Of a DNA stretch of 64,000 bases, positions 1-62,245 are shown in pieces (the first letter of the stretch is position 1; every line of letters begins with the position of its first letter). Both the position numbers and the translations under genes were made by a program. The notes beneath the pieces are model-generated. The model made no database searches. It was not told the origin of the DNA and saw only the letters and a program-made list of their open reading frames with translations. Source of the stretch: a virus; IMG/VR virus record IMGVR_UViG_3300044846_002555, positions 32,001 to 96,000 of that record. One strand, written 5' to 3'.

Positions 1-2886
1 GAATTCTCGGCGTGTACTAACAGTATTGATAGTATAGTGTTTACAAACACATCTAATTTAGCACCTGAGATTTCTTCAATATTAAACGAACCTTACGAAC
101 AATTCGATGGTAGTATAAGTACGTTGTATACTGATTTCTCTAGACAAATTTTTGACGTAGTTTCAACACCGGCAAAAGAGGATACTTCAATTTATTACTA
201 CGGAGCAATACCAACAAGTGTTTATTCAGGATTAAGTGAGGTGTATACAGGTGAAACAAATGTTTACGAAGTTGATAATGTAAGTGCTAATTTATGTAAT
301 TACTCAGCACCACAAAATGACCCTTGGTATTACTCATTATTTGATAATGTTGGTAATGCCGCTTACACAGGATTTTCATTTTGGTCAGTTGTGACAGGAT
401 TAACATTGACACCTATTATTACAACTACAACGTCTACGTCAACAACAACTACTACAACTGACCCATGTACAACTACAACATCAACATCAACCACTTCAAC
501 AACAACGGCTAGACCTACACATTGTTATACAGGTACATTGATAGGTGTTATTTATGTCTATTCGGGAACCGCATATACTGATTATGATGATTTAGTAATT
601 GCTACATTACGTTCAAGAGGTCTTTCAACATATGGTTTAGATGATGGTCCGGTTTATGAAGTATCAGGTTTAACTGATGTTAGTTTAGATTGTACAGGAA
701 CATATTCAGGTGTAACTAAAAACCCATTTTCAACTTTTGGTGTTAACATCACAAGTAAAGATGGTGACCAATATTTCTTTGAAACATCCTTCTCAAACTC
801 TGACCCTAAATATATAAGTAAAGTATTTGGAGCGTCTAACTTCTCTAAACCAAGAACAGTAGTTCCATTATTTGTTGAAGAAAGATTCCAAGCTTTATTA
901 ACAAATGCTTGGAGAATGGGTTATATTAGAGGTTTAAATTGTGAATTAACCGCTTTACCTGACGCACGTCAAGCAATTGACCCAACATCAATAGCATTTT
1001 ATTTAGAGAAATATCAATCTCCGGTATCACCTTGGGTTGTTTCTGAATTAAGAGGTAATAAAGTTTATAACTTATTTAAATTTACAACTATTGCTGATGG
1101 TGATTCTGCTAACGTTGATATTAAAATATCGTTAGCTAATATGTCATTTAACAACGGTACTTTTGATGTATTGATTAGAGATTTCTTTGATACTGATTCT
1201 GCTCCGGTGGTTCTTGAAAAATATACTAACTGTACAATGAACCCTCAAGATAATTCATTCGTAGGTAAGAAAATTGGTAGTTTAGATGGTGAATATCCAT
1301 TATTATCAAGTTATGTTATGGTTGAGATGAATGAGGATGCTCCGATAGACGCACTTCCTTGTGGATTCTTGGGTTATGATTATAGAGAATATGCTGGTGT
1401 TAGACCACCATTCCCATTAATTAAAGCTAAATACTATTATCCTGGTGAGGTAGTTTATAATCCACCATTTGGTTTAGCATCAGGTGCGGACGATACTACT
1501 ACAAGTGCGGGTGATAATGTAAGAAGAACTTATTTAGGTATCTCTGATACTGAAGGTATTGATGTTGACTTCTTCCAATATAAAGGTAATCAACTTCCTT
1601 TAGATATATGTAACGATACTGAAGGTAATCCTTGGAACTTTAGAACTAGAGGATTCCACATGGATGAAAATGCAACAGGTATTACAATACCTAATGTATT
1701 TGTAACTAGTGGTACACCGGCGTTCTTCTGTGGTGACGCACCATTTACATCAGACCCTGATAACCCTGAAAATCCTTACTATAGAATTTTTGCACGTAAA
1801 TTTACTTTACTTGTTAAAGGAGGTTTTGATGGATGGGATATCTACAGAGAATTTAGAACAAATACTGATAGATTTGTATTAGGTAGAGCAGGTTATTTAA
1901 GAGGAGCTTGTCCAACACCAAGATACCCTACCGCAACAGGTTGGGGGGCATTCAAACAAATTAGTGTAGCGGGTAATACTCAAGATTTTGCGAACACCGA
2001 TTATTACGCTTATTTATTAGGTCAAGAAACATTTGCAAATCCTGAAGCAGTAAACATTAACGTGTTTGTTACACCGGGTATTGATTATGTTAATAACTCT
2101 AATTTAGTTGAAAACGCAATCGATATGATTGAATTTAGTAGAGCAGATTCATTGTACGTTTGTACAACACCTGACTACAATATGTATGTTCCTTCAACAG
2201 GTAATCAATTTGACTTTATTTACCCACAAGAGGCTGTAGATAATTTAGCAAATTCAGGTATTGATTCTAACTACACGGCGACTTACTACCCTTGGGTATT
2301 AATGAGAGATACAGTTAACAATACACAAATTTACTTACCAGCAACTGCTGAGGTAACGAGAAACTTAGCGTTAACAGACAACATCGCTTATCCTTGGTTC
2401 GCAGCTGCGGGTTACACGAGAGGTATTGTAAATGCTGTTAAAGCGAGAATTAAACTGACTCAAGAAAATAGAGATACTCTATATCAAGGTCGTTTAAATC
2501 CAATTGCTACCTTCTCTGATGTTGGAACAGTTATTTGGGGTAACAAAACTCTTCAAATTAGACAATCGGCACTTGATAGAATCAACGTAAGAAGATTATT
2601 ACTTCAAGCTCGTAAATTAATATCTGCTGTTTCTGTTAGATTATTATTCGAACAAAACGATGCTAAAGTAAGACAAGATTTCTTGGATTCTGTTAACCCA
2701 ATATTAGATTCGATTAGAAGAGATAGAGGTCTTTACGATTTCCGTGTAACTGTTTCGTCTGACGCAGCTGATATAGACAGAAATCAAATGACAGGTAAGA
2801 TTTACATCAAACCAACCAAATCGTTAGAATTTATAGACATTACGTTCTATATCACTCCAACAGGTGCATCTTTCGAGAATATATAA
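1..2886 (+). CDS. Contractile tail sheath protein (T4 gp18-like), 5'-truncated by the window
   Basis: Frame is open from base 1, so the start lies upstream. The C-terminus has the sheath motifs YYPW, PWFAAAGYTRG, LYQGRLNPIATF, VIWGNKTL, RINVRRLL, LFEQND and IYIKPTKSLEFI. Confidence 0.95.
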   Translation, partial: EFSACTNSIDSIVFTNTSNLAPEISSILNEPYEQFDGSISTLYTDFSRQIFDVVSTPAKEDTSIYYYGAIPTSVYSGLSEVYTGETNVYEVDNVSANLCNYSAPQNDPWYYSLFDNVGNAAYTGFSFWSVVTGLTLTPIITTTTSTSTTTTTTDPCTTTTSTSTTSTTTARPTHCYTGTLIGVIYVYSGTAYTDYDDLVIATLRSRGLSTYGLDDGPVYEVSGLTDVSLDCTGTYSGVTKNPFSTFGVNITSKDGDQYFFETSFSNSDPKYISKVFGASNFSKPRTVVPLFVEERFQALLTNAWRMGYIRGLNCELTALPDARQAIDPTSIAFYLEKYQSPVSPWVVSELRGNKVYNLFKFTTIADGDSANVDIKISLANMSFNNGTFDVLIRDFFDTDSAPVVLEKYTNCTMNPQDNSFVGKKIGSLDGEYPLLSSYVMVEMNEDAPIDALPCGFLGYDYREYAGVRPPFPLIKAKYYYPGEVVYNPPFGLASGADDTTTSAGDNVRRTYLGISDTEGIDVDFFQYKGNQLPLDICNDTEGNPWNFRTRGFHMDENATGITIPNVFVTSGTPAFFCGDAPFTSDPDNPENPYYRIFARKFTLLVKGGFDGWDIYREFRTNTDRFVLGRAGYLRGACPTPRYPTATGWGAFKQISVAGNTQDFANTDYYAYLLGQETFANPEAVNINVFVTPGIDYVNNSNLVENAIDMIEFSRADSLYVCTTPDYNMYVPSTGNQFDFIYPQEAVDNLANSGIDSNYTATYYPWVLMRDTVNNTQIYLPATAEVTRNLALTDNIAYPWFAAAGYTRGIVNAVKARIKLTQENRDTLYQGRLNPIATFSDVGTVIWGNKTLQIRQSALDRINVRRLLLQARKLISAVSVRLLFEQNDAKVRQDFLDSVNPILDSIRRDRGLYDFRVTVSSDAADIDRNQMTGKIYIKPTKSLEFIDITFYITPTGASFENI
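421..510 (+). repeat. Thr/Ser-rich low-complexity tract inside the sheath gene
   Basis: Translates as TTTTSTSTTTTTTDPCTTTTSTSTTSTTT. Confidence 0.9.
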
Positions 2887-2893
2887 TAAATAA

Positions 2894-2926
2894 AATTATG
2901 ACCCATTGTAATAGTGGGTCATAATT
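2894..2926 (+). terminator. Stem-loop after the sheath gene (terminator or processing/stability hairpin)
   Basis: AATTATGACCCA (2894-2905) pairs with TGGGTCATAATT (2915-2926). There is no clear U-tract. Confidence 0.55.
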
Positions 2927-12411: not shown

Positions 12412-12738
12412 ATGGGTACTAAAGATTATTATAATAGATACAATAATTTTATTGTTAATGGACGACAAACAGTTGTTCCATATGTTACTCTGCCAAGTAA
12501 ATCCACAGATAAAAGATATATTTTTAAAGTTGCTCAATCTAGATTAGACAAAGTTTCACAACAATATTATGGGACACCTTTTTTTGGTTGGTTAATATTA
12601 CAAGCAAATCCAATATACGCAGGTCAAGAGTGGAATATCCCTGATGGGGCAATCTTGACAATCCCTTATCCTTTAATTGCTTCATTACAGGATTACAACA
12701 ATGACCTAGAAAATTACTTCTTTTATTATGGTAGATAA
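12412..12738 (+). CDS. LysM-like baseplate wedge protein (T4 gp53 / P2 gpX-like)
   Basis: RLDKVSQQYYG....WLILQANP......IPDGAILTIP. Confidence 0.8.
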   Translation: MGTKDYYNRYNNFIVNGRQTVVPYVTLPSKSTDKRYIFKVAQSRLDKVSQQYYGTPFFGWLILQANPIYAGQEWNIPDGAILTIPYPLIASLQDYNNDLENYFFYYGR

Positions 12739-20661: not shown

Positions 20662-21516
20662 ATGGCGACAAATTCATTAGACGCAGTTTTGGCTCAATAC
20701 GAGCAATCAAAACAAGGTGGTTCTTCTAACACCTCAAAATTCACACAAGAAGAAAGAATGAAAAAATACTTCGCGGCAATCCTTCAAGACAAGGAAACTC
20801 AAGGGCAACGAAGATTAAGAATCTTACCAACTAAAGATGGTTCTACACCATTTAAAGAAGTTTGGTATCACGAGATTCAAGTAGATGGAAAATTCCAAAA
20901 ATTTTATGACCCGGGAAAAAACGACAACGAACGTTCACCTTTAAATGAGGTTTACGAAGAACTTCGTTCAACCGGAAAAGAATCTGACAAAGAGTTAGCT
21001 AAACAGTACTTATCACGTAAATTTTACATTGTGAAAGTTATTGATAGAGATAACGAGGCGGATGGTGTTAAATTTTGGAGATTTAAACATAACTACAAAA
21101 ACGAGGGTATTTTAGACAAAATTATCCCAATTTGGAGAAATAAAGGTGATATCACAGACCCTTTAACAGGTAGAGATATCATTTTAGAATTGACTAAAGC
21201 AAAAACTCCAAAAGGTGCTTTTTACACAGTAATTCAAACGGTTATGTATGACGATGCAGCTCCTGTTCATGAGGATAAAGCAACTGCTGACGGATGGGTT
21301 AACGATGAGTTAACTTGGGAAGATGTTTACTCTAAAAAACCGGTTGAGTATTTAGAAGCTATCGCAAGAGGTGAAACTCCAAAATGGAATTCTGATAAAG
21401 GTGGTTACGATTATGGTAATTCAGACGAAGATGAAACTTCATTTGGTGGTTCTAAACCATCGGCACCTATTGACCCACAAGCGGATGCCGAAGGGGATGA
21501 GGATATGCCATTCTAA
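20662..21516 (+). CDS. Single-stranded DNA-binding protein (T4 gp32-like)
   Basis: RLRILP, FYIVKVIDR, GDITDPLTGRDI and an acidic C-terminal tail ending DEDMPF. It precedes the recombinase. Confidence 0.8.
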   Translation: MATNSLDAVLAQYEQSKQGGSSNTSKFTQEERMKKYFAAILQDKETQGQRRLRILPTKDGSTPFKEVWYHEIQVDGKFQKFYDPGKNDNERSPLNEVYEELRSTGKESDKELAKQYLSRKFYIVKVIDRDNEADGVKFWRFKHNYKNEGILDKIIPIWRNKGDITDPLTGRDIILELTKAKTPKGAFYTVIQTVMYDDAAPVHEDKATADGWVNDELTWEDVYSKKPVEYLEAIARGETPKWNSDKGGYDYGNSDEDETSFGGSKPSAPIDPQADAEGDEDMPF

Positions 21517-21536
21517 TCAAAAACACTTGGACATAT

Positions 21537-21571
21537 AACTTGGACACTGAGACATACTCGGTGTCCAAGTT
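21537..21571 (+). other. 15-bp intergenic hairpin between SSB and recombinase
   Basis: AACTTGGACACTGAG-acata-CTCGGTGTCCAAGTT, with one G-U pair. Confidence 0.75.
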
Positions 21572-21607
21572 GTCTAAAAAACTAAAAAAATTAAATTAAT
21601 TAGATAT

Positions 21608-22612: not shown

Positions 22613-22633
22613 TAACGAATACAAACAAAACAA

Positions 22634-23638: not shown

Positions 23639-23646
23639 TTAAAACT

Positions 23647-24099: not shown

Positions 24100-24129
24100 T
24101 ATTTATTAATACACTAAAAGAAAAAATAT

Positions 24130-25512: not shown

Positions 25513-25517
25513 AAAAA

Positions 25518-26468: not shown

Positions 26469-26469
26469 T

Positions 26470-44500: not shown

Positions 44501-44599
44501 ACTGACGTTATTGTTTATAACTCAATTTGTTCAGTAAATGATACGGGAATCAATTTTAAATTGAATGTTGGAATAAATTTTGAAATTTTATGTAATTAA
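41582..44599 (+). CDS. Baseplate wedge protein with a P2 gpI / T4 gp7-like core
   Basis: [11 protein letters not shown]....[30 protein letters not shown], the KGT signature of gpI/gp7-like proteins. Confidence 0.65.
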
Positions 44600-47500: not shown

Positions 47501-47601
47501 ACTATCTTGAACCTCAAACTCAAGTTGTTGAGTTTTTAAATGTAAATATATCTGAGAATTCTACATTTGAAATTAATCTGACCGGAGGGTCTTGTTTATA
47601 A
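44599..47601 (+). CDS. SprB-repeat, Cys-rich putative virion adhesin with a PT-repeat linker
   Basis: Repeated G-x-I-x-V-x-x-GG-x-x-P-Y/F-x-Y..L-x-x-G-x-Y-x-x-x-V-x-D-x-x-GC units. PT tract at about 46762-46950. Confidence 0.7.
46762..46950 (+). repeat. Pro-Thr mucin-like repeat
   Basis: [63 protein letters not shown]. Confidence 0.9.
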
Positions 47602-50762: not shown

Positions 50763-51788
50763 TTAATTGACACTTATTATTTCTACTCTACAACATCCAC
50801 AACCACTAATACTAGCGTTACCAATTGAGAATAAATCCTGACTTGATGTGTAAGTACAAGGTGTTAATGGGTCGTTTTGTGTTATTGTCGTTGTTGTGTT
50901 TAATATAATATTGTCTGAAGACGTAAAATTTAACGAATTCCAACTTTCGGTATAATAATCTAAATAATTAACTAAATTTTGGCAACCTTGTATTGGATTA
51001 TAATCAGTGTTAGTTGTTGTTAAACCACTTGTTGTTAGTGGAATAGAAACATTATTTTTAGATAATATAGTATTAGTCGTTAAAGTTGCTGTGGTAGCGC
51101 TTGGTGAATAATAAAAAGTGTTATAATGTAATATGTTAAAATTAACCGTAATACCACTTGGTAATGCCGGAATTACACTAAAAGTTGTTGTGTATTGTTT
51201 AGTTAATGTTGTATTTGTGTTAACTGGATTTGTTATTGTTGTATTTAATTTTAATTGATATAATGTCGGAGGTGCCGGCGCATTCAATGTCACGTTATTA
51301 CTATTAGTATTACCACTCGAATCAATAACCTTAACACTATATATTCCTGAACACAAATTAGTAAATGTTGGGGAATTAAAATATGTAATACCATTATCAA
51401 TTGAGTATTGATAAGGTGGATAACCTCCCGACGCGGATACCATTAAATTACCATCACACGTACAAATTGGTTGATTAACACTAAAAGTCAATGAGTTAAC
51501 TCCTAATGGGTTACAAACCCCTTCATTTACTACCACAGTCCCGTTGGCTCCTAATATATACCAAGAGTTAAGCGGGGGTACTGATGATGGTAATGAAGAA
51601 AACATCAAATAAGATAAATTACCACCTGTTAGTTTCCATTTATTAATAGAAGTGTCCCAAGTGATTAAATAAGTATAATCGTCTGACACCCATTGATTGT
51701 AATCATTAGAATCAACACCATAAGGGTTAAAATGTATTTGTAAATTATCTATACTTGAATTTAAACAAAAATTATATTCTATTTCCAT
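50763..51788 (-). CDS. SprB-repeat-containing Thr/Asn-rich putative virion protein
   Basis: DGNLMVSASGGYPPYQYSIDNG..FTNLCSGIYSVKVIDS. The likelier start is ATG 51788, 2 nt after the upstream stop; the track uses 51815. Confidence 0.6.
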   Translation of the reverse strand: MEIEYNFCLNSSIDNLQIHFNPYGVDSNDYNQWVSDDYTYLITWDTSINKWKLTGGNLSYLMFSSLPSSVPPLNSWYILGANGTVVVNEGVCNPLGVNSLTFSVNQPICTCDGNLMVSASGGYPPYQYSIDNGITYFNSPTFTNLCSGIYSVKVIDSSGNTNSNNVTLNAPAPPTLYQLKLNTTITNPVNTNTTLTKQYTTTFSVIPALPSGITVNFNILHYNTFYYSPSATTATLTTNTILSKNNVSIPLTTSGLTTTNTDYNPIQGCQNLVNYLDYYTESWNSLNFTSSDNIILNTTTTITQNDPLTPCTYTSSQDLFSIGNASISGCGCCRVEIISVN

Positions 51789-51790
51789 AA

Positions 51791-52351
51791 TTAAGTTGTT
51801 GAAGTTAATTGACATATAGTACTTGCTGTAAAATCACCCCAATAATCAACAACAGTCACAGGATAAGAACCAACAGGTAAATTCATAACCGCGGGGCTAA
51901 TATTCCCTAATACAGGACCACCCCAAATATATTTATAAGGTGGTGTACCACCGGTTATTGAGACAGATACTCTACCATCATTTGATGTTGGGGTTGTTGG
52001 GTTAATCGAATCACACTCAATTGTCATTGGGAATACCGTTATTACATCACATTCATTAGATTGAATAAAAGTAATTGCTGGTTGTGGTGGAGGTGGGGGA
52101 AAACAACTATAAGCATTTTCAATACAATCAGAGCAATCGGGATATAATACGACACTTCCATTTCCCGCATCATATATTAATGACCCGGAAAGTATTGGTC
52201 CTTGTATTAGAGTTGCACATCCACTGAATGAAGGTATTGTTATTGAATAAACACTACCTAAAATCGGGAAAGGTAAAGTAAGGTCATTTACTCCGAAAAA
52301 ATTATCGGATTCATCAAATTTTTCGCAACATTTTTTAAAATAATATATCAT
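51791..52351 (-). CDS. SprB-repeat-containing protein (186 aa)
   Basis: DGRVSVSITGGTPPYKYIW...LPVGSYPVTVVD. TATTTATA lies upstream at 52373-52380. Confidence 0.65.
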   Translation of the reverse strand: MIYYFKKCCEKFDESDNFFGVNDLTLPFPILGSVYSITIPSFSGCATLIQGPILSGSLIYDAGNGSVVLYPDCSDCIENAYSCFPPPPPQPAITFIQSNECDVITVFPMTIECDSINPTTPTSNDGRVSVSITGGTPPYKYIWGGPVLGNISPAVMNLPVGSYPVTVVDYWGDFTASTICQLTSTT

Positions 52352-52371: not shown

Positions 52372-53352
52372 CTATAAATAATCCTTTATTTGTTTTTTCA
52401 CCAAAGATTTCATAACTTCCACATATTTTTTTGTTGAACTTTGAGAACTTACATAATCAAAAAAGTTAATATCCTCTTTTAATTTATCTAATGGGTTAAT
52501 ATTAATAAAATCTCCTTTATAAAATTTATCTTGTTTTTGGTTACCGGTTACTCCTGCCATATGAAGAATTGGTTTATCTTCATATATTTTTATTGAGTCA
52601 GTTGCCCATGAAAATTCAAACTCGGGTGTAATTCTTGTCTCAATTCCGTGTAACCATAAGTTCCATAATAATGACCACATTTCTGCGGTCCAAAATTGAA
52701 TTTCACCGGGACTTATTGGGAATCTTCTTTGATAATCTAACATTTGGTCATATAGTGGAACACAATCTGCATAAATTTTTTCCCATAATAACCAATCGGT
52801 GTTTTTAATTAGGTATTGACCACCACCTGAATTTTCTTGATTACATTCGATACATTCGACTGAAACACCAATAACATCAGCCATTTCGTTAAGTAATTGA
52901 CCTTTACCGGATGTAGGGTGAGCACTTTCATAACGATTACAACAATCCATAATATAATTATATCCGATATAACCTATGGTATCGGATAAGTAAGTAATAT
53001 CGTCATTAATTAAACTATCAAAATTTGGTAATTTTCTAAATATAATATCAGAGTCGTGTAAGAAAAAACATTTACCATATTCAGGAAAATCTTTTAACCA
53101 TTTTGAAATTAAAAAAGGTTTAACTGTTGGTATATAATGTTTTTGAGGTCTATCGTCAATATAATGATGTACGTTAACACCCGTATCTTTTAATTTTAAA
53201 GATTCTTCAGTTGGTTTACCATCTTCACTTATTATTCCAAGTAATACGTGTATTTGATTTGGGGGGACACCATGTTCAATAAAGTTATGTATATATACCA
53301 TTATTTGCCAATGGAAATATGGTACATCAGGTTGAGCTGTAACAAAAATCAT
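52372..53352 (-). CDS. GT-A glycosyltransferase resembling peptidyl O-glycosyltransferases (GT96 SGT1 / GT95 HPAT-like)
   Basis: Motifs PYFHWQ, YIPTVKP....KWL, FFLHDSDIIF (DxD), WTAEMW and ILH occur in the same order as YFDWQ, YPAINKP..HWL, LDADM, WISEMY and H of the plant enzymes, as recalled from memory. Confidence 0.7.
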   Translation of the reverse strand: MIFVTAQPDVPYFHWQIMVYIHNFIEHGVPPNQIHVLLGIISEDGKPTEESLKLKDTGVNVHHYIDDRPQKHYIPTVKPFLISKWLKDFPEYGKCFFLHDSDIIFRKLPNFDSLINDDITYLSDTIGYIGYNYIMDCCNRYESAHPTSGKGQLLNEMADVIGVSVECIECNQENSGGGQYLIKNTDWLLWEKIYADCVPLYDQMLDYQRRFPISPGEIQFWTAEMWSLLWNLWLHGIETRITPEFEFSWATDSIKIYEDKPILHMAGVTGNQKQDKFYKGDFININPLDKLKEDINFFDYVSSQSSTKKYVEVMKSLVKKQIKDYL

Positions 53353-53603: not shown

Positions 53604-56600
53604 TTACGTTCCGTAAACTATTTCAATACCTTCAATGTGTATAGTCCATCTTAAAGTTTCTCCAACAACACCGGTTACCTGTATGTCTAAAGCGTCATTA
53701 GTATCGTCAGCGGTAATTGCAACGTCATAAGATGAGTTAGTTTCTACATCAGTACCAATAGTTGATACAGTACCGATTAAAGAAGTTACTCCACCTACAT
53801 TCTTAATCGCAACTTTTCTTATATAGTGAGCTCCTCCTGAACCATCTGATTTAATACCACCAATATTTACTGTAACAAACATTGCAGTTCCTGCAATTAC
53901 GGATATAAGTTGAGTTGTTCCATCTAAAAATATATTAACTGGTGTCGCATTTGTTGTTTTATTTCTACCAACTAAGTCAATTTGTTGTGATGTTCCTTTT
54001 ATTAAACCATTAAAACTACCTGAAGAAAAAGACCTTTGACCGAAACGAGGTGCACATGATAATGTTCCACCAAGAATTGATGAATAACAACCTGTGGTAG
54101 TGTTGCCACAACCTCCACCAATAAATGAATGGGTACCACATGAAATATTTGATATACCACCAACAATTGCCGAACAACCACTAAACACGACATTTCCATT
54201 ACCACCACCAACAAAAGAACCTGATGAACAAACCCCATTTACGTTTCCACCAACAATTACAGATAGGGTTGTACTTGATAATGCGGGTGTTGCAATACAG
54301 TTTGATTGACCACCACCAATAAAGTTAGAATCACCATGAGTTCTATTTGACATACCGCTAACAATTGCTGAGTATCCATATACCCATTGGCATGTAATAC
54401 AGTTTCCATTACCCCCACCTATAAATGAAAAACTTAAACGAGTTGTATTATTATTACCCCCACCAATAAATGAAGAGTTTCCTATAGTAATATTACAATA
54501 ACCACCACCAATTGTTGAACATCCCCCACTTGAATTATTCTTTTGACCACCACCAATTGTTGAAGTATCTCCTGATGAGATATTATTATATCCACCACTG
54601 ATTGTTGAAGTGGCTCCTGATAAACGGTTTTTAGCTCCACCTCCAATTGTTGATATTCTACCACATATCACATTACTATAACCACCACTAATTGTTGTGA
54701 AATAACATGATGATGATGTATTATCACAACCACCGGCAATTACCGAACAATTTCCACAAGCGCGATTTTTATATCCACCACCAATTGTTGAGGTAGCACC
54801 GGATGAGACATTACATCTACCACCAACAACAGTTGACCAACTACCTGAAGATAAATTACAAACCCCACCACCAATTGTTGAACACGCCCCTGATGCGATG
54901 TTTCTATAACCTCCACTTATTGTTGATAATTTACCCGCATTAAATGTACAAGTTGGACTAGTCGTTACAGCTCCTGTTGTAAAGTTAAATGTTCCTCCAC
55001 TAGTATTATTAAAAATACCACCACCGATAGTTGTACCTAAAGAACAACATTCGTTATTTGGTGATTGTATTCTATTATTAAGACCACCACCAATTGTTGA
55101 AAATCTTGCATTTATTATGTTAATACAACCACCACCAATTGTTGAAGTATAACCTGAAGAATTATTATTACTACCACCACCAACAGTTCCAAGTATTCCG
55201 TAGACACGATTGTCAATACCACCCCCAATTGTTCCACCATCACCAAAAATTCTTTGTGATTGACCACCACTAATCGTTGCTCCTAAACAATACACAACAT
55301 TTAATGCACCTCCTCCAATGGTTGAAGTATTTCCGCTGATTACATTATCAATTCCACCCCCAATGAATGAATCACTACCCGATACACTATTAGACCTACC
55401 ACCACCAATTATTGAACATAAACCTGATGCGGTATTCTTACAGCCACCACCAACAAATGAACAATTTCCTGATGCGGTATTACAAAAACCACCTAAAATT
55501 GATGACCTTAAACCTGATGCGGTATTACATTGACCACCACTTACTGTTGAATAATTACATGATGATATATTTTTAAAACCACCACCAATTGTTGAACAAA
55601 CCCCTATGGCTTGATTACAAATTCCTCCGGCAATTGTTGAAGTAGTTCCTGTTGCGATATTATTACATCCTCCCCCAATTGTTGAACTATTACCCACAAC
55701 AAAATTTTTACAACCACCACCAATAAATGAATGGGTACTTGTTATAGTATTTTGACTACCACCAACAATACTTGAAGTGGCTCCTGATACTGTATTACCA
55801 ATACCTCCACCAATAAATCCTTGACAAAATCCACCTGAACTTGTTGTAAAATTTCGTAAAAATGGTTGTGAGGAAGAAAAAGGACTCACAGAGACAGTTG
55901 CACCACTAACATACAAGTTTGTATATGGTGAGGAATATGTTTGTCCTGTAATAACTACGTTTCTACTACATCCGAAGTTATCATATGTTAATAAAAGGTC
56001 GTTTACGCTAAATGATGATAATTGATTCCCGAACAATTGTAATGTACAAGTATTTGCGGAATATGAACTTATTAGTTGAGAATTGCCTATAAAGTTTAAT
56101 GTTCCACCTCCAATTATAGAATGTCTTGCGTAACTTACGTTAACGCTTCCACCCCCAATAACACCAAATTCTAACACAACTTTATTATTATTACCACTTA
56201 CAATACCACCACCATAAGAACATTGAGCCAAACAGTTACCACATCCTCCTAAAATTGCTGCTCTAACTCCATATGTTTTATTAGCTGTTCCACCGGCTAT
56301 AACACCATCTTCACCAACACCTGTTGTTCCTGATATTAAGTTACCTCTACCTCCACCAATAAATCCGAATTCGTTACATATTTTATTATTTGTTCCACCT
56401 GCGATTACTGAATTTGATGGGTTCATTGTATTACTAGTTATACAATTGTAAAAACCACCACCTATTGTAGAATATGTTCCACAAACGAGATTAAGTCTAC
56501 CACCGGCAATTGTTGAGTTATTACAACATGTTGTATTACAACAACCACCACCAACAAATGAAAAACATCCTGATGATGTATTTCCTAATCCACCACCAAT

Positions 56601-58775
56601 AAATGAACAAGCACCACATGCACAATTTGATATACCACCACCAATCGTTGAATGACTTCCACATGATATATTAGACTCACCACCACCAATTGTTGAGTAA
56701 TTACAATATGTTCTATTATACGAACCTCCGGCTATTGTTGAACAATTACCGTAAGTGCAATTGTGATTACCGCCACCAATAAATGAATTATAACCTGACG
56801 ATAAATTATTAGTACCATTACCAATAAATGAGTATTGACCACTAGCGACATTATAACTTCCCGCCCCAATAAATGACGAATAATTACTTGATGTATTACT
56901 TGAACCACCACCTATAAAAGATTTAATACCGCTAGCAGTATTTTGTTGACCTCCAACAACACTTGACGCATTTCCACTTGCGGTGTTTAATACTCCCGCT
57001 CCAATAAACGAGCCGTATGAACCACTTGCGTTATTACAATAACCCCCACCGATAAATGACCAATTTCCTGTTGATGTATTTTTACAACCACCACCAATAA
57101 ATGAATGTGTTCCTCCACTAACTATATTTTGTCGTCCACCAACCACAACTGAAAAATCTGTTGTTGCAGAGTTTGATAAACCACCTAATACTGCACTACA
57201 ATTTCCTGATGCAAGATTACTAACACCACATCTAACAGATGAGTTAACGCCTGTTCCTGTAATGATTACGGCTGATGAACCACCTCCACCACCGGCAATA
57301 GGTACTAAAAGTCCATTTGTACTAACTCCAACATAACAACCACTACAAGTACTCATAGAAGTAATAATCATGTCGTTAACAAATGTCGTACAATCTCTAT
57401 TTGATGTTATATTTGAACCAATAATGAAAGATTCATTATTTGAAACCGTATTATTCACACCTCCGGCTATAAAACTTCCAACACCAATGGCGTTATTTGT
57501 TCCACCACCAACTATTGATGAAAGAACACCACTTGCGGTATTTGAACCAAACGAATTCCCACCACCACCTACAAATGAACGATATCCTGATGCGGTATTA
57601 CCGCAACCTCCACCAACAAAAGAACCATCACACGACGCGGTATTCTTACTACCACCACCAATTGTTGAGGTAGTACCTGATGCTATATTACAAAAACCAC
57701 CACCTATTGTTGAATCATTACCTGATGATATGTTAATACGTCCACCACCAATGAATGAACAAGTTCCTGATATTGAATTACATTGACCACCGGCAATTGT
57801 TGATTTATCACCACAAACGGTATTTGATTGACCACCTCCAATAGTTGAACTATCACAATAAGCTTTATTACCACCACCTCCGGCAATTGTTGAGTTGTTG
57901 GATAAGGCTTGATTACAATAACCACCACCAACGGTTGCGTCACCATTATTTGGATATGGTCCGGTAACACAAGCTATATTATATCCACCACCTGCAATAG
58001 TATTTCTTGGTCCGACAACAAGATTACAACAACCACCACCTATTGTTGATGTATTTCCTGATATTCTATTTAAATGACCACCACCAATAAATGAATGAGT
58101 TCCTCCGCTAATAACGTTTTGACAACCTCCACCAATTGTTGCTCCGGATGTTGTTAATATGTTACAAAATCCACCACTTATAGTTGAATCATTATTTGAT
58201 ACCGTATTACAACGACCACCTCCAATTATTGAGCAACAACCCGATACGACATTACAATAACCACCACCAATTGATGAAATAAATCCTGAAACCTCATTTC
58301 TACATCCACCACCAATAATTGAGGCATTCCCTGACGCAGTATTTCTAGTACCACCACCAACAGTTGAAGCGAAACTTCCTGATATATTACAACGACCACC
58401 ACTTATTGTTGAATAACAACCTGCGTTATTATTTTTATAACCACCACCAATTAATGAATGTGTTCCACCACTAACTATATTTTGTCGTCCACCAACAACC
58501 ATTGAATAATTTGTTGTTGCTGAATTTGATAACCCTCCTAACGCGCCGGAATTATTACCACATGCTAGATTATTAACATCTCTTCTAATTGATGAGTTAA
58601 CACCTGTTCCACTTACAATTACAACAAATGGTGAACCACTAATTGCTTCGTCAATTGTTGATTTATATGATGAACCTGCAGGATTCTGAGTCGGGTTATT
58701 AGTATCAACAATGTGAATTAATGTTTGATTAGTTGTAAACCCTGATGGTGAATATGTTCTTTGAGTTAAAATCAT
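53604..58775 (-). CDS. Gly/Cys-rich 14-residue-repeat fibre/adhesin (beta-roll, YadA-head-like)
   Basis: 1723 aa, mostly S-[TF]-I-G-G-G-x-x-N-x-x-S-G-x units in three blocks, with a non-repetitive C-terminal beta domain. Confidence 0.7.
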   Translation of the reverse strand: MILTQRTYSPSGFTTNQTLIHIVDTNNPTQNPAGSSYKSTIDEAISGSPFVVIVSGTGVNSSIRRDVNNLACGNNSGALGGLSNSATTNYSMVVGGRQNIVSGGTHSLIGGGYKNNNAGCYSTISGGRCNISGSFASTVGGGTRNTASGNASIIGGGCRNEVSGFISSIGGGYCNVVSGCCSIIGGGRCNTVSNNDSTISGGFCNILTTSGATIGGGCQNVISGGTHSFIGGGHLNRISGNTSTIGGGCCNLVVGPRNTIAGGGYNIACVTGPYPNNGDATVGGGYCNQALSNNSTIAGGGGNKAYCDSSTIGGGQSNTVCGDKSTIAGGQCNSISGTCSFIGGGRINISSGNDSTIGGGFCNIASGTTSTIGGGSKNTASCDGSFVGGGCGNTASGYRSFVGGGGNSFGSNTASGVLSSIVGGGTNNAIGVGSFIAGGVNNTVSNNESFIIGSNITSNRDCTTFVNDMIITSMSTCSGCYVGVSTNGLLVPIAGGGGGSSAVIITGTGVNSSVRCGVSNLASGNCSAVLGGLSNSATTDFSVVVGGRQNIVSGGTHSFIGGGCKNTSTGNWSFIGGGYCNNASGSYGSFIGAGVLNTASGNASSVVGGQQNTASGIKSFIGGGSSNTSSNYSSFIGAGSYNVASGQYSFIGNGTNNLSSGYNSFIGGGNHNCTYGNCSTIAGGSYNRTYCNYSTIGGGESNISCGSHSTIGGGISNCACGACSFIGGGLGNTSSGCFSFVGGGCCNTTCCNNSTIAGGRLNLVCGTYSTIGGGFYNCITSNTMNPSNSVIAGGTNNKICNEFGFIGGGRGNLISGTTGVGEDGVIAGGTANKTYGVRAAILGGCGNCLAQCSYGGGIVSGNNNKVVLEFGVIGGGSVNVSYARHSIIGGGTLNFIGNSQLISSYSANTCTLQLFGNQLSSFSVNDLLLTYDNFGCSRNVVITGQTYSSPYTNLYVSGATVSVSPFSSSQPFLRNFTTSSGGFCQGFIGGGIGNTVSGATSSIVGGSQNTITSTHSFIGGGCKNFVVGNSSTIGGGCNNIATGTTSTIAGGICNQAIGVCSTIGGGFKNISSCNYSTVSGGQCNTASGLRSSILGGFCNTASGNCSFVGGGCKNTASGLCSIIGGGRSNSVSGSDSFIGGGIDNVISGNTSTIGGGALNVVYCLGATISGGQSQRIFGDGGTIGGGIDNRVYGILGTVGGGSNNNSSGYTSTIGGGCINIINARFSTIGGGLNNRIQSPNNECCSLGTTIGGGIFNNTSGGTFNFTTGAVTTSPTCTFNAGKLSTISGGYRNIASGACSTIGGGVCNLSSGSWSTVVGGRCNVSSGATSTIGGGYKNRACGNCSVIAGGCDNTSSSCYFTTISGGYSNVICGRISTIGGGAKNRLSGATSTISGGYNNISSGDTSTIGGGQKNNSSGGCSTIGGGYCNITIGNSSFIGGGNNNTTRLSFSFIGGGNGNCITCQWVYGYSAIVSGMSNRTHGDSNFIGGGQSNCIATPALSSTTLSVIVGGNVNGVCSSGSFVGGGNGNVVFSGCSAIVGGISNISCGTHSFIGGGCGNTTTGCYSSILGGTLSCAPRFGQRSFSSGSFNGLIKGTSQQIDLVGRNKTTNATPVNIFLDGTTQLISVIAGTAMFVTVNIGGIKSDGSGGAHYIRKVAIKNVGGVTSLIGTVSTIGTDVETNSSYDVAITADDTNDALDIQVTGVVGETLRWTIHIEGIEIVYGT

Positions 58776-59114: not shown

Positions 59115-61319
59115 TTAAAAAGCGTATGATGGGTTAAATGATGTAACTACCCCATTAACAACTGTTACCGCTGTAACGGGATAGTTTGATGTGGTTATTG
59201 CACCATTAACAATTATATTTGAGTTGATTGTGAAAGTGTTACTTGTAACTCCTTGTGTCACTTCAAAGTCATAAAGAGTTACCTCTTGACGTTTAGATTG
59301 ACCTGATGATAATGTTCGTCCTTTAGAACTGTAATCACATGTTTGTGATGATAATGAGGGTATTTGTATATATGGTGAACTATTACCCGAAAAAGGGATG
59401 GTTGAATTATATGTGTCACAAAAATTGTAAAAACCATAAACCCTATATTTTGGATTATTTTGTGATACTAAATTTATATAACTATATTTAGCAAAAGGGT
59501 CAATATATCTTGAACCGGTATTATTGGTTAATACTCTATTATTACTTGTGGCAATTGATGAATTATTAATATTAGTTACAATAGAATTTGTAACAAATTC
59601 ACAACCAACATCACAATTTGTAAAATTTAAATTATTTTGAATTGTTGGCATTGTTATTTTTAAGGTATAGTTATTAGAGGTCTCACCTGTTTCTACAATA
59701 CTTGAAAAGTGGATATTATAAGTCAATTCCTCAATATTATCACCACAAGGTTGATTATTTGGTGTGTTAGGTATTGAAAGTATTGCGTATTGATAATAAA
59801 GAATATTTGTTGAGTCATTAATCCATCCAGACGATGATTTTTTCGATTCATAAGATGATTTATATGCGATTAAATCACTTAAATTACTAAAAGTCATATT
59901 AATAACACCTTCTACTGATGGACCTGGTATATTTTTTATAAATGAAATAGTATTTGTGTTTTGAAGTGAGCAAGAGATTTGTCCACCAATCGGTTGTAGG
60001 TTACATTGAACATAGTTTGTAGTTGTGTAAGCCTCGCGAGTTATTAATGAAGTTGTATTATTACAGAAAACTTGTTCAAAATTATTATTAATATTTACTG
60101 ATGTTTCTGTTGCCATATACTTATAAATGTCAGAGTTTGTAATTGCGGATGTGGTACATCCTGATAGATTAAATTTAATAGTGTTTAGACCACAAGAAGC
60201 AGGGATGTTTATAATAGATGAAGTATCTATTTTATATGGGCTGTTTAAATAATCATCTAAACATAATGAACAATCAAAAGTATCTAAACAAGTAAAATAA
60301 AAATCCCAATTGGTTTGTTGATTATTTGGATTCGGAATCACTTCTAAAATTAAATAATCGCCAGGATTTCTAGATAATGATGTTAATGAAGTCACTTTAG
60401 ATAAATAAGTACTATCTGGAATCCCGGAATTAATAAATGAACGCGTTGATGCTGATTTAGGTAATGTTAATAAATTTAAATTTGTAACGGTATCAACACC
60501 TATCGTTATAAATTCTAAAATAATTGGTTCACTATATGATGAACCATAAAAAGTGATTTTAAGAGTGTCAGGGACATTATTACCTTTAAACTTCCATGCA
60601 AAATAATCAGTTGTTGCTGATAATTCAAATGTTGAATTTATTGCTAATGGGATTACACCTGCCGCGGCACCGGCAAAATTAACTCTATGAGTATAATCCC
60701 CCTCTTCAGTTCCATTATCACATCTAAATGGTGCAACATTAACAGTTATTGCGTTAAAACAATCTAACTCGGCTTGTATATAATTAGTACCACCTGTTTG
60801 AGAGAAATTAAGACCATCTAATTTAACTTTATCGATTATTGGAATATAATTTCCGGCTGGTTGCATTAGATTGGATAGTGGGTGTGTATTTTCGTAGGGT
60901 GAAAATTCACTACCATAACCTGATGTAAACGCTAATTGATTAGGGTTATCAGGTCCGTACCAAAATATTCTATAATCAGATATTGTGTTTTGACAGCTAC
61001 CGGTTAATTCTCCCGCAACTATTACTCCAACAGTATTAGTTTCATAATCCTCAAATCCTAATTCACACGTTTCACATAAATCGTTAGATAATATATCAAT
61101 AGTAACACAACATTTTGATAATGTATCAATAATTTTAATAATTGTTGTCCCGTCAGGTACATTACCCATAATGTATGGACAGTTGTTAAATAATTGAGAA
61201 TAAGTTACGTTTGATTGGAACTCATTAAAAAATTGGTCAACATTAGAATAAATGTTGAATAACCCTCCTAATGGTATTGTACCGGAATTTGTTAAACAAG
61301 TTGATGCTGAAAATGACAT
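59115..61319 (-). CDS. Cys/Asn/Thr-rich putative virion protein (734 aa)
   Basis: Long ORF in the minus-strand structural cluster. No catalytic motif recognised. Confidence 0.6.
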   Translation of the reverse strand: MSFSASTCLTNSGTIPLGGLFNIYSNVDQFFNEFQSNVTYSQLFNNCPYIMGNVPDGTTIIKIIDTLSKCCVTIDILSNDLCETCELGFEDYETNTVGVIVAGELTGSCQNTISDYRIFWYGPDNPNQLAFTSGYGSEFSPYENTHPLSNLMQPAGNYIPIIDKVKLDGLNFSQTGGTNYIQAELDCFNAITVNVAPFRCDNGTEEGDYTHRVNFAGAAAGVIPLAINSTFELSATTDYFAWKFKGNNVPDTLKITFYGSSYSEPIILEFITIGVDTVTNLNLLTLPKSASTRSFINSGIPDSTYLSKVTSLTSLSRNPGDYLILEVIPNPNNQQTNWDFYFTCLDTFDCSLCLDDYLNSPYKIDTSSIINIPASCGLNTIKFNLSGCTTSAITNSDIYKYMATETSVNINNNFEQVFCNNTTSLITREAYTTTNYVQCNLQPIGGQISCSLQNTNTISFIKNIPGPSVEGVINMTFSNLSDLIAYKSSYESKKSSSGWINDSTNILYYQYAILSIPNTPNNQPCGDNIEELTYNIHFSSIVETGETSNNYTLKITMPTIQNNLNFTNCDVGCEFVTNSIVTNINNSSIATSNNRVLTNNTGSRYIDPFAKYSYINLVSQNNPKYRVYGFYNFCDTYNSTIPFSGNSSPYIQIPSLSSQTCDYSSKGRTLSSGQSKRQEVTLYDFEVTQGVTSNTFTINSNIIVNGAITTSNYPVTAVTVVNGVVTSFNPSYAF

Positions 61320-61333
61320 ATATATTTTAAATT

Positions 61334-62245
61334 TTAAGTTTTAGTATAAGCATAACCTTCTAATCCACAAGTAGTGATACATTCTGAAGGCATTCCTGAT
61401 GGAGTTACTGTTGGTGTCGGTGATGGTGTTGGTACAATTGATTCAGAACAGAAAATACAATCCGCACCTATTTGACTTCCATAAGGTCCAATTAGTAATG
61501 TAATGTTATCAATACCAATTGTGTTATTATTTATACCCATATAACTGATACAAATAATTTCACCATTAACATTCGCTTGATAAACTTCAAATTGTGTGAT
61601 AGTATTACCGGTAGGTGTTATAATTTGATTAGTTGTGAATAACATCTTACCTGTACCATAACACTCTTGGAATTGATAACTATAAGGACATACTATATTG
61701 TCGTCTATAGTGTTAAATGTTACCCCACCTTCAAAAGTACAATCACGACTAATCACCGGTGACGATGATGGTGTTATTGTTGGAGTTGGAGTTGGTGTTG
61801 GTGACACACTTTGAATTGTTGCGCTTATAATAACATTACATAAGTTAGTTGGTGTCGGAGTTGGTGTTGGTGTTGAGGTTGTTGTTGGAGTTGGAGTAGG
61901 TGTAGGTGTTGCGGGAAAATCACAATCAAAAATAGCTGAAAAATTTAAACTTGAACAATTTTGAGTTGGACTAGGTGTGGGTGTTGGACACGCTCCACTT
62001 GAGAAATAAACATCATCTAAATCCGGACATGGGTTAAAACAAGGTGACTGACCTGATAAATCACAAGTTCCGTCTAAAGCGGTTGATAAACACCATTGAG
62101 TTGACCCTGTGTTATAATAAATAAATAATCCATTTGTTTGACCGGTCCAATATAGTTCGGAGTTATGTGTCCCGGCACTAAAATAGATATCATCAAATGT
62201 TGGGTAACCAGTGTTTGAAAGGCAATATATTGAACTACACGGCAT
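61334..62245 (-). CDS. Cys-rich protein with several Pro-Thr tracts (303 aa)
   Basis: PTPTPSPT, PATPTPTPTPTTTSTPTPTPTPT, SPTPTPTPTITPSSSP and PTPSPTPTVTPS. Confidence 0.7.
   Translation of the reverse strand: MPCSSIYCLSNTGYPTFDDIYFSAGTHNSELYWTGQTNGLFIYYNTGSTQWCLSTALDGTCDLSGQSPCFNPCPDLDDVYFSSGACPTPTPSPTQNCSSLNFSAIFDCDFPATPTPTPTPTTTSTPTPTPTPTNLCNVIISATIQSVSPTPTPTPTITPSSSPVISRDCTFEGGVTFNTIDDNIVCPYSYQFQECYGTGKMLFTTNQIITPTGNTITQFEVYQANVNGEIICISYMGINNNTIGIDNITLLIGPYGSQIGADCIFCSESIVPTPSPTPTVTPSGMPSECITTCGLEGYAYTKT

What the first reader, a model, noticed from the sequence alone, without database searches (positions are those of the whole stretch)
1..62245. Recurring [S/T]-G-x-T tetrapeptide in structural but not replication proteins: a possible modification sequon
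Seen: the sheath has TGET, TGLT, SGLT, SGVT and TGIT. The hub has SGYT, SGVT, TGNT, TGDT and SGGT. The 408-aa PKD protein has TGAT, TGTT (twice), TGMT, SGDT, SGYT, TGYT and SGVT. There are many more in the 1786, 1000, 829, 303 and 1723-aa proteins, plus [S/T]-A-x-T variants (SATT, SANT, SAST). Across SSB, RecA, exonuclease, DnaB, NrdAB and primase I see only three (TGKT, which is the Walker A, SGKT and TGFT). Inference: a short motif scattered through unrelated virion folds behaves like an enzyme recognition sequon, perhaps for the neighbouring glycosyltransferase. It differs from the Bacteroidota host sequon D-[S/T]-[A/I/L/V/M/T].
Basis: partly seen in the sequence, partly recalled or inferred. 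Interest (0 to 1): 0.78.

Follow-up and report, generated by a model that had tools for sequence, protein, structure and literature searches.

The report
Over-represented Ser/Thr-Gly-x-Thr motif in phage virion proteins
The tail, baseplate and fibre proteins of this large phage carry about three times more copies of the four-residue motif Ser/Thr-Gly-x-Thr than chance predicts, and the same genome encodes a bacterial-type protein sugar-transferase, so the motif may mark sugar attachment sites, although an ordinary beta-strand-end structural motif explains the data about as well.

Summary
In the 27 structural ORFs, [ST]GxT occurs 73 times against 25.8 expected (z about 9.5). Local shuffles give the same result. 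Without the four repeat proteins it is 43 against 13.7. The other 115 ORFs of the fragment sit at 0.97x. The reverse and permuted motifs are not enriched, so this is a true three-position motif: S/T, then G (or A), then T at +3, usually after a hydrophobic residue.

The two hydroxyl residues are more conserved in orthologues than other S/T (0.81 and 0.83 against 0.58). The motif is also enriched in non-homologous proteins of a complete 318-kb relative and of a very distant megaphage, LR756501. T4 and three other large phages lack it.

No glycosyltransferase next to the motif-bearing genes could be verified. However, 17-30 kb upstream of the window the genome carries a glycan cluster that includes a clear TibC/Aah-type protein O-heptosyltransferase.

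Against a sequon:
- Two other phages with that enzyme lack the motif.
- Bacterial SprB adhesins show 2.4x.
- The sites lie in or at the ends of beta-strands.

I put a structural strand-end motif at about 0.45 and an O-glycosylation acceptor at about 0.38. The scan had already noted the TibC-like gene elsewhere on this genome.

The parts
1..2886 (+). Tail sheath, 5'-truncated by the window (full ORF 1108 aa in the genome). It has 5 [ST]GxT against 1.2 expected, all in the N-terminal, non-core part (residues 83-559 of the window ORF).
   Evidence: PHROG 23 tail sheath, E=3e-48 on residues 670-959; counts; contexts.
12728..19615 (+). 2295-aa baseplate or hub-region protein with 5 sites against 1.5 expected.
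   Evidence: No PHROG hit. The orthologue in G001 has 6 against 1.5.
31346..36706 (+). 1786-aa structural protein with 5 sites against 1.6 expected.
   Evidence: Sites 826 and 885 are kept in relaxed form in 95-97% of orthologues.
36708..38570 (+). 620-aa structural protein with 3 sites against 0.5 expected.
39363..40589 (+). 408-aa protein with a central PKD-like domain, the densest carrier: 8 [ST]GxT against 0.9 expected (Poisson p=5e-6), plus 2 [ST]AxT.
   Evidence: Six sites are kept in at least 34 of 49 homologues. The family as a whole is at 7.1x. AF2 gives pLDDT 67 and a PKD fold with TMt 0.71-0.77.
41582..44599 (+). 1005-aa structural protein with 3 sites against 1.0 expected.
44599..47601 (+). 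1000-aa SprB-repeat protein with 8 sites against 3.0 expected. Several sites are the SprB consensus phi-[ST]-G-G-T-x-P-Y.
   Evidence: Pfam SprB, E=1e-21; contexts.
48243..50732 (-). 829-aa structural protein with Pro-Thr linkers; 4 sites against 1.4 expected.
50763..52351 (-). Two small ORFs of 350 and 186 aa with sub-threshold SprB matches; 3 and 1 sites.
52372..53352 (-). It is unverified and carries no motif.
   Evidence: PHROG 4417, unknown function. No Pfam or PDB hit. Atlas neighbours carry HPAT on 10% of members. Invariant H-D-x-D stretch in 27 homologues.
53604..58775 (-). 1723-aa Gly-rich protein made of 15-residue repeats, S-[TF]-I-G-G-G-x-x-N-x-[AV]-S-G-x-x. It has 18 [ST]GxT against 8.3 expected, as a by-product of the repeat. 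It is the likeliest substrate of the TibC-like enzyme.
   Evidence: Sequence; counts. A paralogous 455-aa repeat protein lies beside the glycosyltransferase cluster, and a 1876-aa one does so in G001.
59115..62245 (-). 734-aa and 303-aa structural proteins with 3 sites each, against about 1.0 expected each.
   Evidence: The 734-aa protein is the only motif-rich ORF with a BLAST match in LR756501.
20662..28884 (+). Replication and nucleotide-metabolism block used as contrast (SSB, UvsX-like, exonuclease, DnaB-like, NrdB, NrdA). It has 2 sites, TGKT (a Walker A) and SGKT.

Best explanation
phi-[ST]-[GA]-x-T is a real, selected short motif of the outward-facing beta-rich parts of the virion. These parts are the sheath insertions, hub, fibres, SprB- and PKD-type modules and, in the complete relative, the capsid protein.

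The most likely reading, by a small margin, is structural. A beta-strand ends in a hydrophobic residue. A Ser/Thr and a small residue (Gly or Ala) then make a tight turn or bulge, and a Thr two residues on re-enters the sheet, so that both hydroxyls cap the turn.

It is abundant here because this phage lineage builds its peripheral virion proteins from the same kind of Ig-like beta-sandwich modules as the surface adhesins of Bacteroidota, its probable hosts.

Shown: the enrichment, the order specificity, the conservation and the strand context. Inferred: the turn geometry and the reason for the abundance.

This reading does not exclude that the same exposed strand-end hydroxyls are also glycosylated (see the first rival).
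For: - Strand periodicity upstream: hydrophobic residues at -1 (60%) and -3 (53%) against a 35% background. In the 408-aa family the -1 residue is mostly L/I/Y/V/F and x is mostly L/Y/F/I.
- In the AF2 model (pLDDT 70-83 around them), sites 126, 264, 295, 316 and 338 lie inside or at the C-terminal end of beta-strands.
- Sites are positionally conserved in orthologues of 54-66% identity.
- The motif is part of the SprB repeat consensus. Bacterial SprB adhesins from five Bacteroidota genomes show 273 against 112 (2.44x, reverse 1.04x), and still about 1.6x without the consensus copies. Their neighbouring genes show 1.08x.
- TGxT is also the top-ranked pattern in Flavobacterium phage immuto, which lacks the TibC-like gene.
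- Two phages that have the TibC-like gene, Mel-JY01 and LR756504, show no enrichment.
- Described TibC/Aah sites are serines, not threonines (PMC4358343). Here Thr is as common as Ser at position 1.
Against: - A purely structural turn should tolerate Val or Ile at +3 and Ser at +3, yet [ST]GxV is 0.60x, [ST]GxI 0.63x and [ST]GxS 0.73x.
- The motif Gly is no more conserved than other Gly (0.75 against 0.71), while both hydroxyls are.
- Distant family members carry up to 14 copies in 390 aa, with turnover of positions and head-to-tail arrays such as TGITTGIT and, in LR756501, SGLTTGTTTGITSGVT. These cannot each be a strand end.
- Cellular PKD-repeat giants that match the same profile show 1.04x.
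- T4 structural proteins show 1.26x.
- The motif-rich ORFs of LR756501 are not homologous to those of this phage.
Confidence: 0.45

Rival explanations
1. The motif is an acceptor site for phage-encoded cytoplasmic O-glycosylation of virion proteins. A strand-end Ser/Thr followed by a small residue is presented to a glycosyltransferase. The initiating enzyme would be the TibC/Aah-type O-heptosyltransferase or the GT4-family enzyme of the same cluster. The other transferases, O-methyltransferases and the sulfotransferase with its APS kinase would then extend and decorate the glycan. The Gly-rich 15-residue-repeat fibres would be the classical TibC-type substrates, and the dispersed [ST]GxT sites a second class.
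For: - Genome ORF 5311-6483 matches TibC (PDB 4rap) at E=3e-54 over residues 84-383. The catalytic Asp-110 and Cys-339/342/358/370 are conserved (residue roles from PMC4358343).
- The 13-kb cluster also holds GT9, GT4, GT2 and GT34-like genes, a 1038-aa GT4+GT9+FkbM fusion, three further methyltransferases, a sulfotransferase and an APS kinase.
- A Gly-rich repeat fibre lies beside the cluster in this genome and in G001, as autotransporters lie beside TibC/Aah-type genes.
- Known TibA sites are S-G-G and S-A-A after a strand, which parallels the G/A at position 2.
- TibC/Aah-type enzymes act in the cytoplasm, where virions assemble (established knowledge of the family).
- The hydroxyls are preferentially conserved. 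There are tandem arrays and positional turnover.
- The enrichment is confined to virion proteins: 2.81x against 0.97x.
- Enrichment arises independently in non-homologous ORFs of LR756501. That phage shares the TibC-like gene, the GT4 (47% identity) and an FkbM methyltransferase, and has 13 GT1/GT2 hits.
- Across 7 genomes, enrichment tracks the number of GT hits. This is my own rank comparison with small n, not corrected for genome size or relatedness.
Against: - There is no direct evidence of modification.
- Mel-JY01 and LR756504 have the TibC-like gene but show 1.2-1.3x.
- Bacterial SprB adhesins are enriched without any phage enzyme.
- Thr at position 1 does not fit the Ser-only specificity reported for TibC/Aah.
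- No heptose-nucleotide synthesis genes were seen in the cluster.
- The sites model as beta-strand residues.
- The motif is not depleted from non-virion proteins.
Confidence: 0.38
2. The motif serves another function at the virion surface. Examples are contact with host surface glycans, ordered-water or ice-binding-like Thr arrays, or recognition by a host enzyme or a chaperone.
For: Thr or Asn is frequent at +5, giving T-x-T faces. TxT is 1.49x overall. The Gly-rich protein has a weak match to a grass antifreeze beta-roll (E=8e-4, below the cut-off).
Against: Nothing specific supports any of these functions. The motif occurs in sheath, hub and capsid proteins as well as in fibres.
Confidence: 0.12
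3. The enrichment is an artefact of amino-acid composition, internal repeats or shared ancestry of the proteins.
For: 18 of the 73 sites come from one repeat protein and about 5 from SprB repeats. Family-wide counts such as 7.1x count inherited sites many times.
Against: - Global and local shuffles give 25-26 expected.
- After repeat removal the count is 43 against 13.7.
- The reverse and permuted motifs are at or below 1.
- Non-homologous proteins in G001 and LR756501 repeat the effect.
Confidence: 0.03

Closest known systems
Bacterial autotransporter heptosyltransferases (TibC, Aah) and their acceptor sites in TibA and AIDA-I
   Same: The genome encodes a clear TibC homologue with the catalytic Asp and the four iron-finger Cys. 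It sits beside a Gly-rich beta-repeat protein. Known acceptor serines are followed by small residues (S-G-G, S-A-A) at strand ends of a beta-helix (PMC4358343).
   Different: The enzyme is in a phage, not beside an autotransporter. The motif needs Thr at +3 and takes Thr as often as Ser at position 1. Two other phages with the enzyme lack the motif. No sugar-donor pathway was identified.
SprB repeat (PF13573) of Bacteroidota gliding-motility adhesins
   Same: The consensus contains phi-[ST]-G-G-T-x-P-Y. The 1000-aa phage protein is a member (E=1e-21). Bacterial SprB proteins are enriched 2.4x for [ST]GxT.
   Different: Most phage sites lie in proteins with no SprB match and lack the P-Y continuation. 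x is any non-basic residue rather than Gly.
Virion glycosylation in mycobacteriophages (Freeman et al. 2023, cited in PMC12619734)
   Same: Phage-encoded glycosyltransferases modify structural proteins.
   Different: In those phages the glycans sit on C-terminal Ser/Thr-rich tails of capsid and tail-tube subunits, and no tetrapeptide sequon has been described. That summary rests on the citing paper's text; I did not read the original.
General O-glycosylation sequon of Bacteroidota, D-[ST]-[AILVMT]
   Same: It is a three-residue Ser/Thr sequon in the probable host phylum.
   Different: It is a periplasmic system. That sequon is not enriched in these virion proteins (60 against 58.9).

Membership tests
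BAHT family (TibC/Aah), for genome ORF 5311-6483 outside the window | Sequence homology to the TibC catalytic GT-B/GT9 core | tested here: met
   PDB 4rap TibC, E=3e-54, query residues 84-383 against TibC 67-381. Pfam Glyco_transf_9 at 29.6 bits, above the cut-off of 22.
BAHT family (TibC/Aah) | Iron-finger with four Cys (TibC C339, C342, C358, C370) | tested here: met
   All four aligned positions are Cys in the phage protein (alignment; residue numbers from PMC4358343).
BAHT family (TibC/Aah) | Catalytic base Asp-110 | tested here: met
   The aligned motif is G-D in the phage protein. The D110A crystal variant 4rb4 shows G-A at that position.
BAHT family (TibC/Aah) | Gene adjacent to a beta-helical repeat substrate | tested here: met
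   A 455-aa protein of 15-residue Gly-rich repeats lies at genome 237-1604, beside the cluster. In G001 a 1876-aa paralogue abuts the cluster. It is not an autotransporter.
BAHT family (TibC/Aah) | Heptosyl transfer to Ser of the substrate; dodecameric ring | not testable with these tools
   Needs biochemistry. No heptose-nucleotide genes were seen among the 12 cluster ORFs scanned.
Protein glycosylation sequon (as a class) | Over-represented in candidate substrates and not in other proteins, beyond composition | tested here: met
   2.81x against 0.97x. Shuffles and permuted motifs.
Protein glycosylation sequon (as a class) | Acceptor hydroxyl under stronger constraint than other Ser/Thr | tested here: met
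   0.81 and 0.83 against 0.58, p<=1e-4. A structural role predicts the same.
Protein glycosylation sequon (as a class) | Sites solvent-exposed on the folded protein | tested here: inconclusive
   The model gives only secondary structure. Five sites are in or at the end of strands and three lie in regions with pLDDT below 50. Periodicity suggests the Ser/Thr faces away from the core.
Protein glycosylation sequon (as a class) | Co-occurrence with one particular transferase across genomes | tested here: inconclusive
   The TibC-like gene is present in 2 of 2 motif-rich lineages but also in 2 of 5 motif-poor genomes. The GT4 is in 2 of 2 and 0 of 5, on very few genomes and among 6 ORFs with that profile.
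Protein glycosylation sequon (as a class) | Mass shift at the site | not testable with these tools
   Needs mass spectrometry of virions.
   Pfam gives no hit at 1e-3. The profile does pick up PKD-repeat giants over positions 112-205. The model matches PKD1 domains with TMt 0.71-0.77 and rmsd about 3 A. The W-G-D-G...H-T-Y...G-x-Y signature is present.
Glycosyltransferase, for the 326-aa ORF 52372-53352 | Match to a glycosyltransferase family by sequence or fold | tested here: not met
   No Pfam family above threshold in it or in 26 homologues; the best is Nucleotid_trans, E=0.097, in one member. No PDB hit by sequence or by profile. The only leads are Atlas HPAT on 10% of one neighbouring cluster and an invariant H-D-x-D.

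The most novel reading that the evidence does not exclude
[ST]-[GA]-x-T is the acceptor sequon of a phage-encoded cytoplasmic O-glycosylation system. The system would comprise a TibC-type or GT4 initiating enzyme, extending transferases, O-methyltransferases and a PAPS-dependent sulfotransferase. It would coat the tail, baseplate, fibres and capsid of a widespread freshwater lineage of roughly 300-kb Bacteroidota-type jumbo phages, and independently at least one 735-kb megaphage, with decorated glycans.
Probability: 0.35. Interest if true: 0.85.

Novelty: new variant of a known kind. Interest (0 to 1): 0.6.

Why it matters
Virion glycosylation is documented for only a few phages, and no defined sequon is known for it. 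This case offers a sharply defined, countable candidate site. It has dozens of copies per virion protein set and is conserved across at least 200 metagenomic relatives. It sits in a genome with a recognisable protein O-glycosyltransferase of a family so far described only for bacterial autotransporters. In a library of 50,697 phage records, that family matched only four.

If the motif is modified, it gives a direct handle on how large phages shield or tune their surfaces, and a new sequon for glycoengineering. If it is not, it is a compact structural signature of Bacteroidota-type beta-modules that motif-based glycosite predictions need to discount. One mass-spectrometry experiment decides between the two.

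Tried and rejected
- **First AF2 run.** The 408-aa protein with 46 close homologues failed (pLDDT 42.7). A second run with 52 more diverse sequences reached 67.4. It yields only secondary structure, so burial could not be measured.
- **DNA-level cause.** Rejected, because codons at the motif follow the background.
- **Local S/T/G-rich composition.** Rejected by shuffles in windows of 10-40 residues.
- **Host sequon D-[ST]-[AILVMT] and N-x-[ST].** Neither is enriched.
- **A simple link between the TibC-like gene and motif enrichment.** Rejected by Mel-JY01 and LR756504.
- **Capsid and portal in this record.** Absent because the record is only about 46% complete. I used the complete relative G001 instead.
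- **Genomic context of motif-free homologues (P0148, P0162, P0259).** Five fragments carrying P0231-like genes had no TibC-like match, but they are only 12-26% complete.
- **crAssphage control.** Accession NC_024711 is not in the phage collection.
- **Mel-JY01 repeat ORF beside its TibC-like domain.** It is a Pro/Glu/Val repeat as annotated and unrelated to the Gly-rich fibres here.


Full report
**What the window is.** The 64-kb window is bases 32001-96000 of a 142,859-bp IMG/VR virus record. CheckV rates the record 46% complete. A relative with 89-94% protein identity, G001, is 318,164 bp and rated 100% complete. The phage is therefore a jumbo myovirus of roughly 300 kb.

The window holds:
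- sheath, tube and hub genes and very large baseplate proteins;
- a replication and nucleotide block with SSB, UvsX-like, exonuclease, DnaB-like, NrdB and NrdA genes;
- baseplate wedge genes;
- a long run of unannotated large proteins on both strands.

The nearest isolated phages are only 30-36% identical in the sheath: Flavobacterium phage immuto and Microcystis phage Mel-JY01. NrdA is closest (42-45%) to Bacteroidota genomes. This fits a Bacteroidota host but does not prove it.

**The observation.**
- In the 27 structural ORFs (17,496 aa), [ST]GxT occurs 73 times against 25.8 expected from shuffling each protein. That is z about 9.5, and no shuffle reaches 73.
- Shuffling within windows of 40, 20 or 10 residues gives the same expectation, so local S/T/G-rich patches are not the cause.
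- Eighteen sites belong to the 15-residue repeat of the 1723-aa Gly-rich protein, and about five to SprB repeats.
- Without those four proteins the count is 43 against 13.7. None of 2000 shuffles reaches it, and TGxT ranks third of 3677 gapped patterns, behind only Pro-Thr linker patterns.
- The motif is order-specific. The reverse TxG[ST] is 0.70x, [ST]GxS 0.73x, G[ST]xT 0.39x, [ST]GxV 0.60x and NGxT 0.70x. The pair terms are only about 1.1x.
- Position 2 accepts Ala (2.35x). The x position is never K, R, P, H or W.
- Codon usage at the sites equals the background.
The sound contrast is the structural block at 2.81x against the other 115 ORFs of the fragment at 0.97x.

**Anatomy of the motif.**
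- The residue before the motif is hydrophobic in 60% of sites, and the residue at -3 in 53%, against a 35% background. Thr or Asn is common at +5. This is the signature of a beta-strand that ends at the Ser/Thr.
- In the 408-aa protein family, six of the eight sites are kept in at least 34 of 49 homologues, with S/T exchange at position 1 and G/A exchange at position 2.
- Across six proteins and orthologues below 80% identity, the motif's two hydroxyl positions stay Ser/Thr in 81% and 83% of sequences, against 58% for other Ser/Thr (p<=1e-4). The motif Gly is no more conserved than other Gly, 0.75 against 0.71.
- A second AF2 model (pLDDT 67) confirms a central PKD-like domain (TMt 0.71-0.77 to solved PKD1 domains). 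It places sites 126, 264, 295, 316 and 338 inside or at the C-terminal end of strands. Sites 65, 68 and 89 fall in unreliable regions.
- Burial cannot be computed from what the tool returns.

**Replication outside the window.**
- In G001, ORFs with no homologue in this fragment are also enriched (55 against 25.2). They include the gp23-like capsid protein (3 against 0.64) and three ORFs next to the glycan cluster (25 against 3.8), all in the same phi-[ST]-G-x-T context.
- In 121 representatives of the 408-aa family (at most 50% mutual identity) the motif occurs 407 times against 57 expected, and [ST]AxT 109 against 23. The reverse motif is 1.03x. Cellular PKD-repeat giants that match the same profile show 1.04x.
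- Some family members carry 14 copies in 390 residues, at positions not shared with the query, and head-to-tail pairs such as TGITTGIT. These family counts include inherited sites and are not independent events.

**Comparison across phages** (ORFs of at least 150 aa with under 12% Gly):

| Genome | TibC-like gene | [ST]GxT obs/exp |
|---|---|---|
| This fragment | yes | 2.42 |
| G001 | yes | 2.30 |
| LR756501 (735 kb) | yes | 2.87 |
| Mel-JY01 | yes | 1.34 |
| LR756504 | yes | 1.20 |
| LR756508 | no | 1.39 |
| Flavobacterium phage immuto | no | 1.64 |
| T4 | no | 1.25 |

- The reverse motif is 0.93-1.40 in every genome.
- LR756501 shares only 16 ORFs with this fragment by tblastn. Yet eleven of its ORFs are individually significant, and all but one have no BLAST match to this lineage. 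TGxT and SGxT rank 3rd and 6th of 7277 patterns there. One ORF holds the array SGLTTGTTTGITSGVT.
- In immuto, TGxT is the top pattern but SGxT is not enriched.
- T4 structural proteins alone give 18 against 14.3.

**The enzymes.** No window ORF matches a glycosyltransferase family.
It is PHROG 4417 (unknown function) and very conserved, with 1416 homologues.
- It has no Pfam or PDB match by sequence or by profile.
- The only leads are an invariant H-D-x-D stretch and an Atlas neighbour cluster in which 10% of members carry HPAT.

Upstream of the window, at genome 1.6-14.6 kb, lies a minus-strand cluster:
- a GT9-like ORF, an APS kinase, a sulfotransferase and an FkbM methyltransferase;
- a 390-aa TibC homologue;
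- a SAM methyltransferase, a GT4, an unknown ORF, a GT34-like ORF and a GT2;
- a 1038-aa GT4+GT9+FkbM fusion and another methyltransferase.

The 390-aa ORF matches TibC (PDB 4rap) at E=3e-54. It keeps the catalytic Asp-110 and all four iron-finger cysteines (roles from PMC4358343).

Homologues of this enzyme occur in only 4 of 50,697 phage records. They occur in at least 204 IMG/VR contigs, including contigs that also carry the 408-aa gene. A Gly-rich 15-residue-repeat protein flanks the cluster in both genomes. This echoes the pairing of TibC/Aah-type genes with beta-helical autotransporters. The mapped TibA sites are serines followed by small residues, QN-S-GGAV and NT-S-AAVSGT, and threonines were not modified.

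**Weighing the two readings.** The sequon reading is supported by:
- the strict need for hydroxyls at positions 1 and 4, with Val and Ile disfavoured at +3;
- the preferential conservation of the hydroxyls;
- positional turnover and tandem arrays;
- the restriction to virion proteins;
- the independent rise in LR756501;
- the presence of a cytoplasmic protein O-glycosyltransferase with a rich decorating cluster.

Among ORFs of this fragment with a tblastn match in LR756501, six match in no motif-poor genome. The only glycan-related ones are the 322-aa GT4 (47% identity), the FkbM methyltransferase and the 186-aa Methyltransf_24 ORF, which has no match in G001. GT1 plus GT2 hits number 13 in LR756501, 5 in Mel-JY01, 4 in immuto, 2 in LR756508 and 1 in LR756504.

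Against the sequon reading:
- The TibC-like gene alone does not predict the motif.
- Thr at position 1 does not fit the known specificity of that family.
- The sites are strand residues in the model.
- Bacterial SprB adhesins from five Bacteroidota genomes are enriched 2.44x. One third of those sites are the SprB consensus and the rest are at about 1.6x. Their neighbouring genes are at 1.08x.

A baseline of 1.6-2.4x therefore exists in this class of beta-repeat surface proteins without any phage enzyme. I cannot separate the readings with sequence tools. I give the structural strand-end motif 0.45, the O-glycosylation acceptor 0.38, another surface function 0.12 and artefact 0.03. The first two readings are not exclusive, because TibC/Aah enzymes are reported to recognise a strand-loop-strand element.

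**Novelty and limits.** I found no paper in the held library that describes a TibC/Aah-type gene in a phage, or this tetrapeptide. A 2025 paper on aquatic 'moraphages' of Bacteroidota reports four core glycosyltransferase families (PMC12619734). Whether this phage belongs to that lineage was not checked. All ORF sets were called by a simple longest-ORF rule.

Noticed in passing
genome 1639-14561 (L083), minus strand, 17-30 kb upstream of the window start: A 13-kb glycan cluster. It holds GT9-like, APS kinase, sulfotransferase, FkbM methyltransferase, TibC/Aah-type O-heptosyltransferase homologue, SAM methyltransferase, GT4, GT34-like and GT2 genes, a 1038-aa GT4+GT9+FkbM fusion and a Methyltransf_24 gene. 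It implies methylated and sulfated glycans made by a phage.
   Followed up: partly
window 53604-58775 (-) and genome 237-1604 (L083): Two Gly-rich proteins built from 15-residue repeats, S-[TF]-I-G-G-G-x-x-N-x-[AV]-S-G-x-x. They resemble trimeric-adhesin head or AIDA-type beta-roll repeats. One flanks the glycosyltransferase cluster here and in G001.
   Followed up: partly
window 48243-50732 (-), genome 14670-15560 and other ORFs: Long Pro-Thr linkers. PTxT occurs 51 times against 8.5 expected in the window, and 151 against 20 in G001. This is a mucin-like signal separate from the tetrapeptide.
   Followed up: no
window 52372-53352 (-): A 326-aa ORF (PHROG 4417) with enzyme-like conservation: 67-98% identity in 120 listed homologues and an invariant H-D-x-D. 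It matches no known family. It is a candidate GT-A enzyme that needs a fold prediction.
   Followed up: partly
genome 25050-26588 (L084:9050-10588, -): A 512-aa ORF with complete Fe/Mn superoxide dismutase N- and C-terminal domains (E=3e-22 and 3e-39), fused to about 280 further residues. Also present in G001 and, weakly, in LR756501.
   Followed up: no
window 47637-48236 (-): A 199-aa ORF with a weak RuvC-like resolvase match (PHROG 159, E=4.5e-5), sitting between fibre genes on the opposite strand.
   Followed up: no
LR756501.1 125000-126130 (-), within L257: A 376-aa ORF of a 735-kb megaphage with four head-to-tail motif copies, SGLTTGTTTGITSGVT. That genome has 13 GT1/GT2 matches, and its TibC-like domain lies inside a 743-aa ORF.
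   Followed up: partly
Mel-JY01 PP395634.1 4750-8430 (L088): The TibC-like domain of this isolated cyanophage is the C-terminal part of a 1226-aa protein annotated only as 'methyltransferase FkbM'. The record's annotation misses the protein glycosyltransferase.
   Followed up: no
window 39363-40589 (+) family, profile positions 112-205: The PKD-like core of the 408-aa protein matches giant cellular proteins of 2000-4000 aa with up to 38 repeats (P0124, P0134, P0135). The phage module was probably drawn from host-type adhesins.
   Followed up: no
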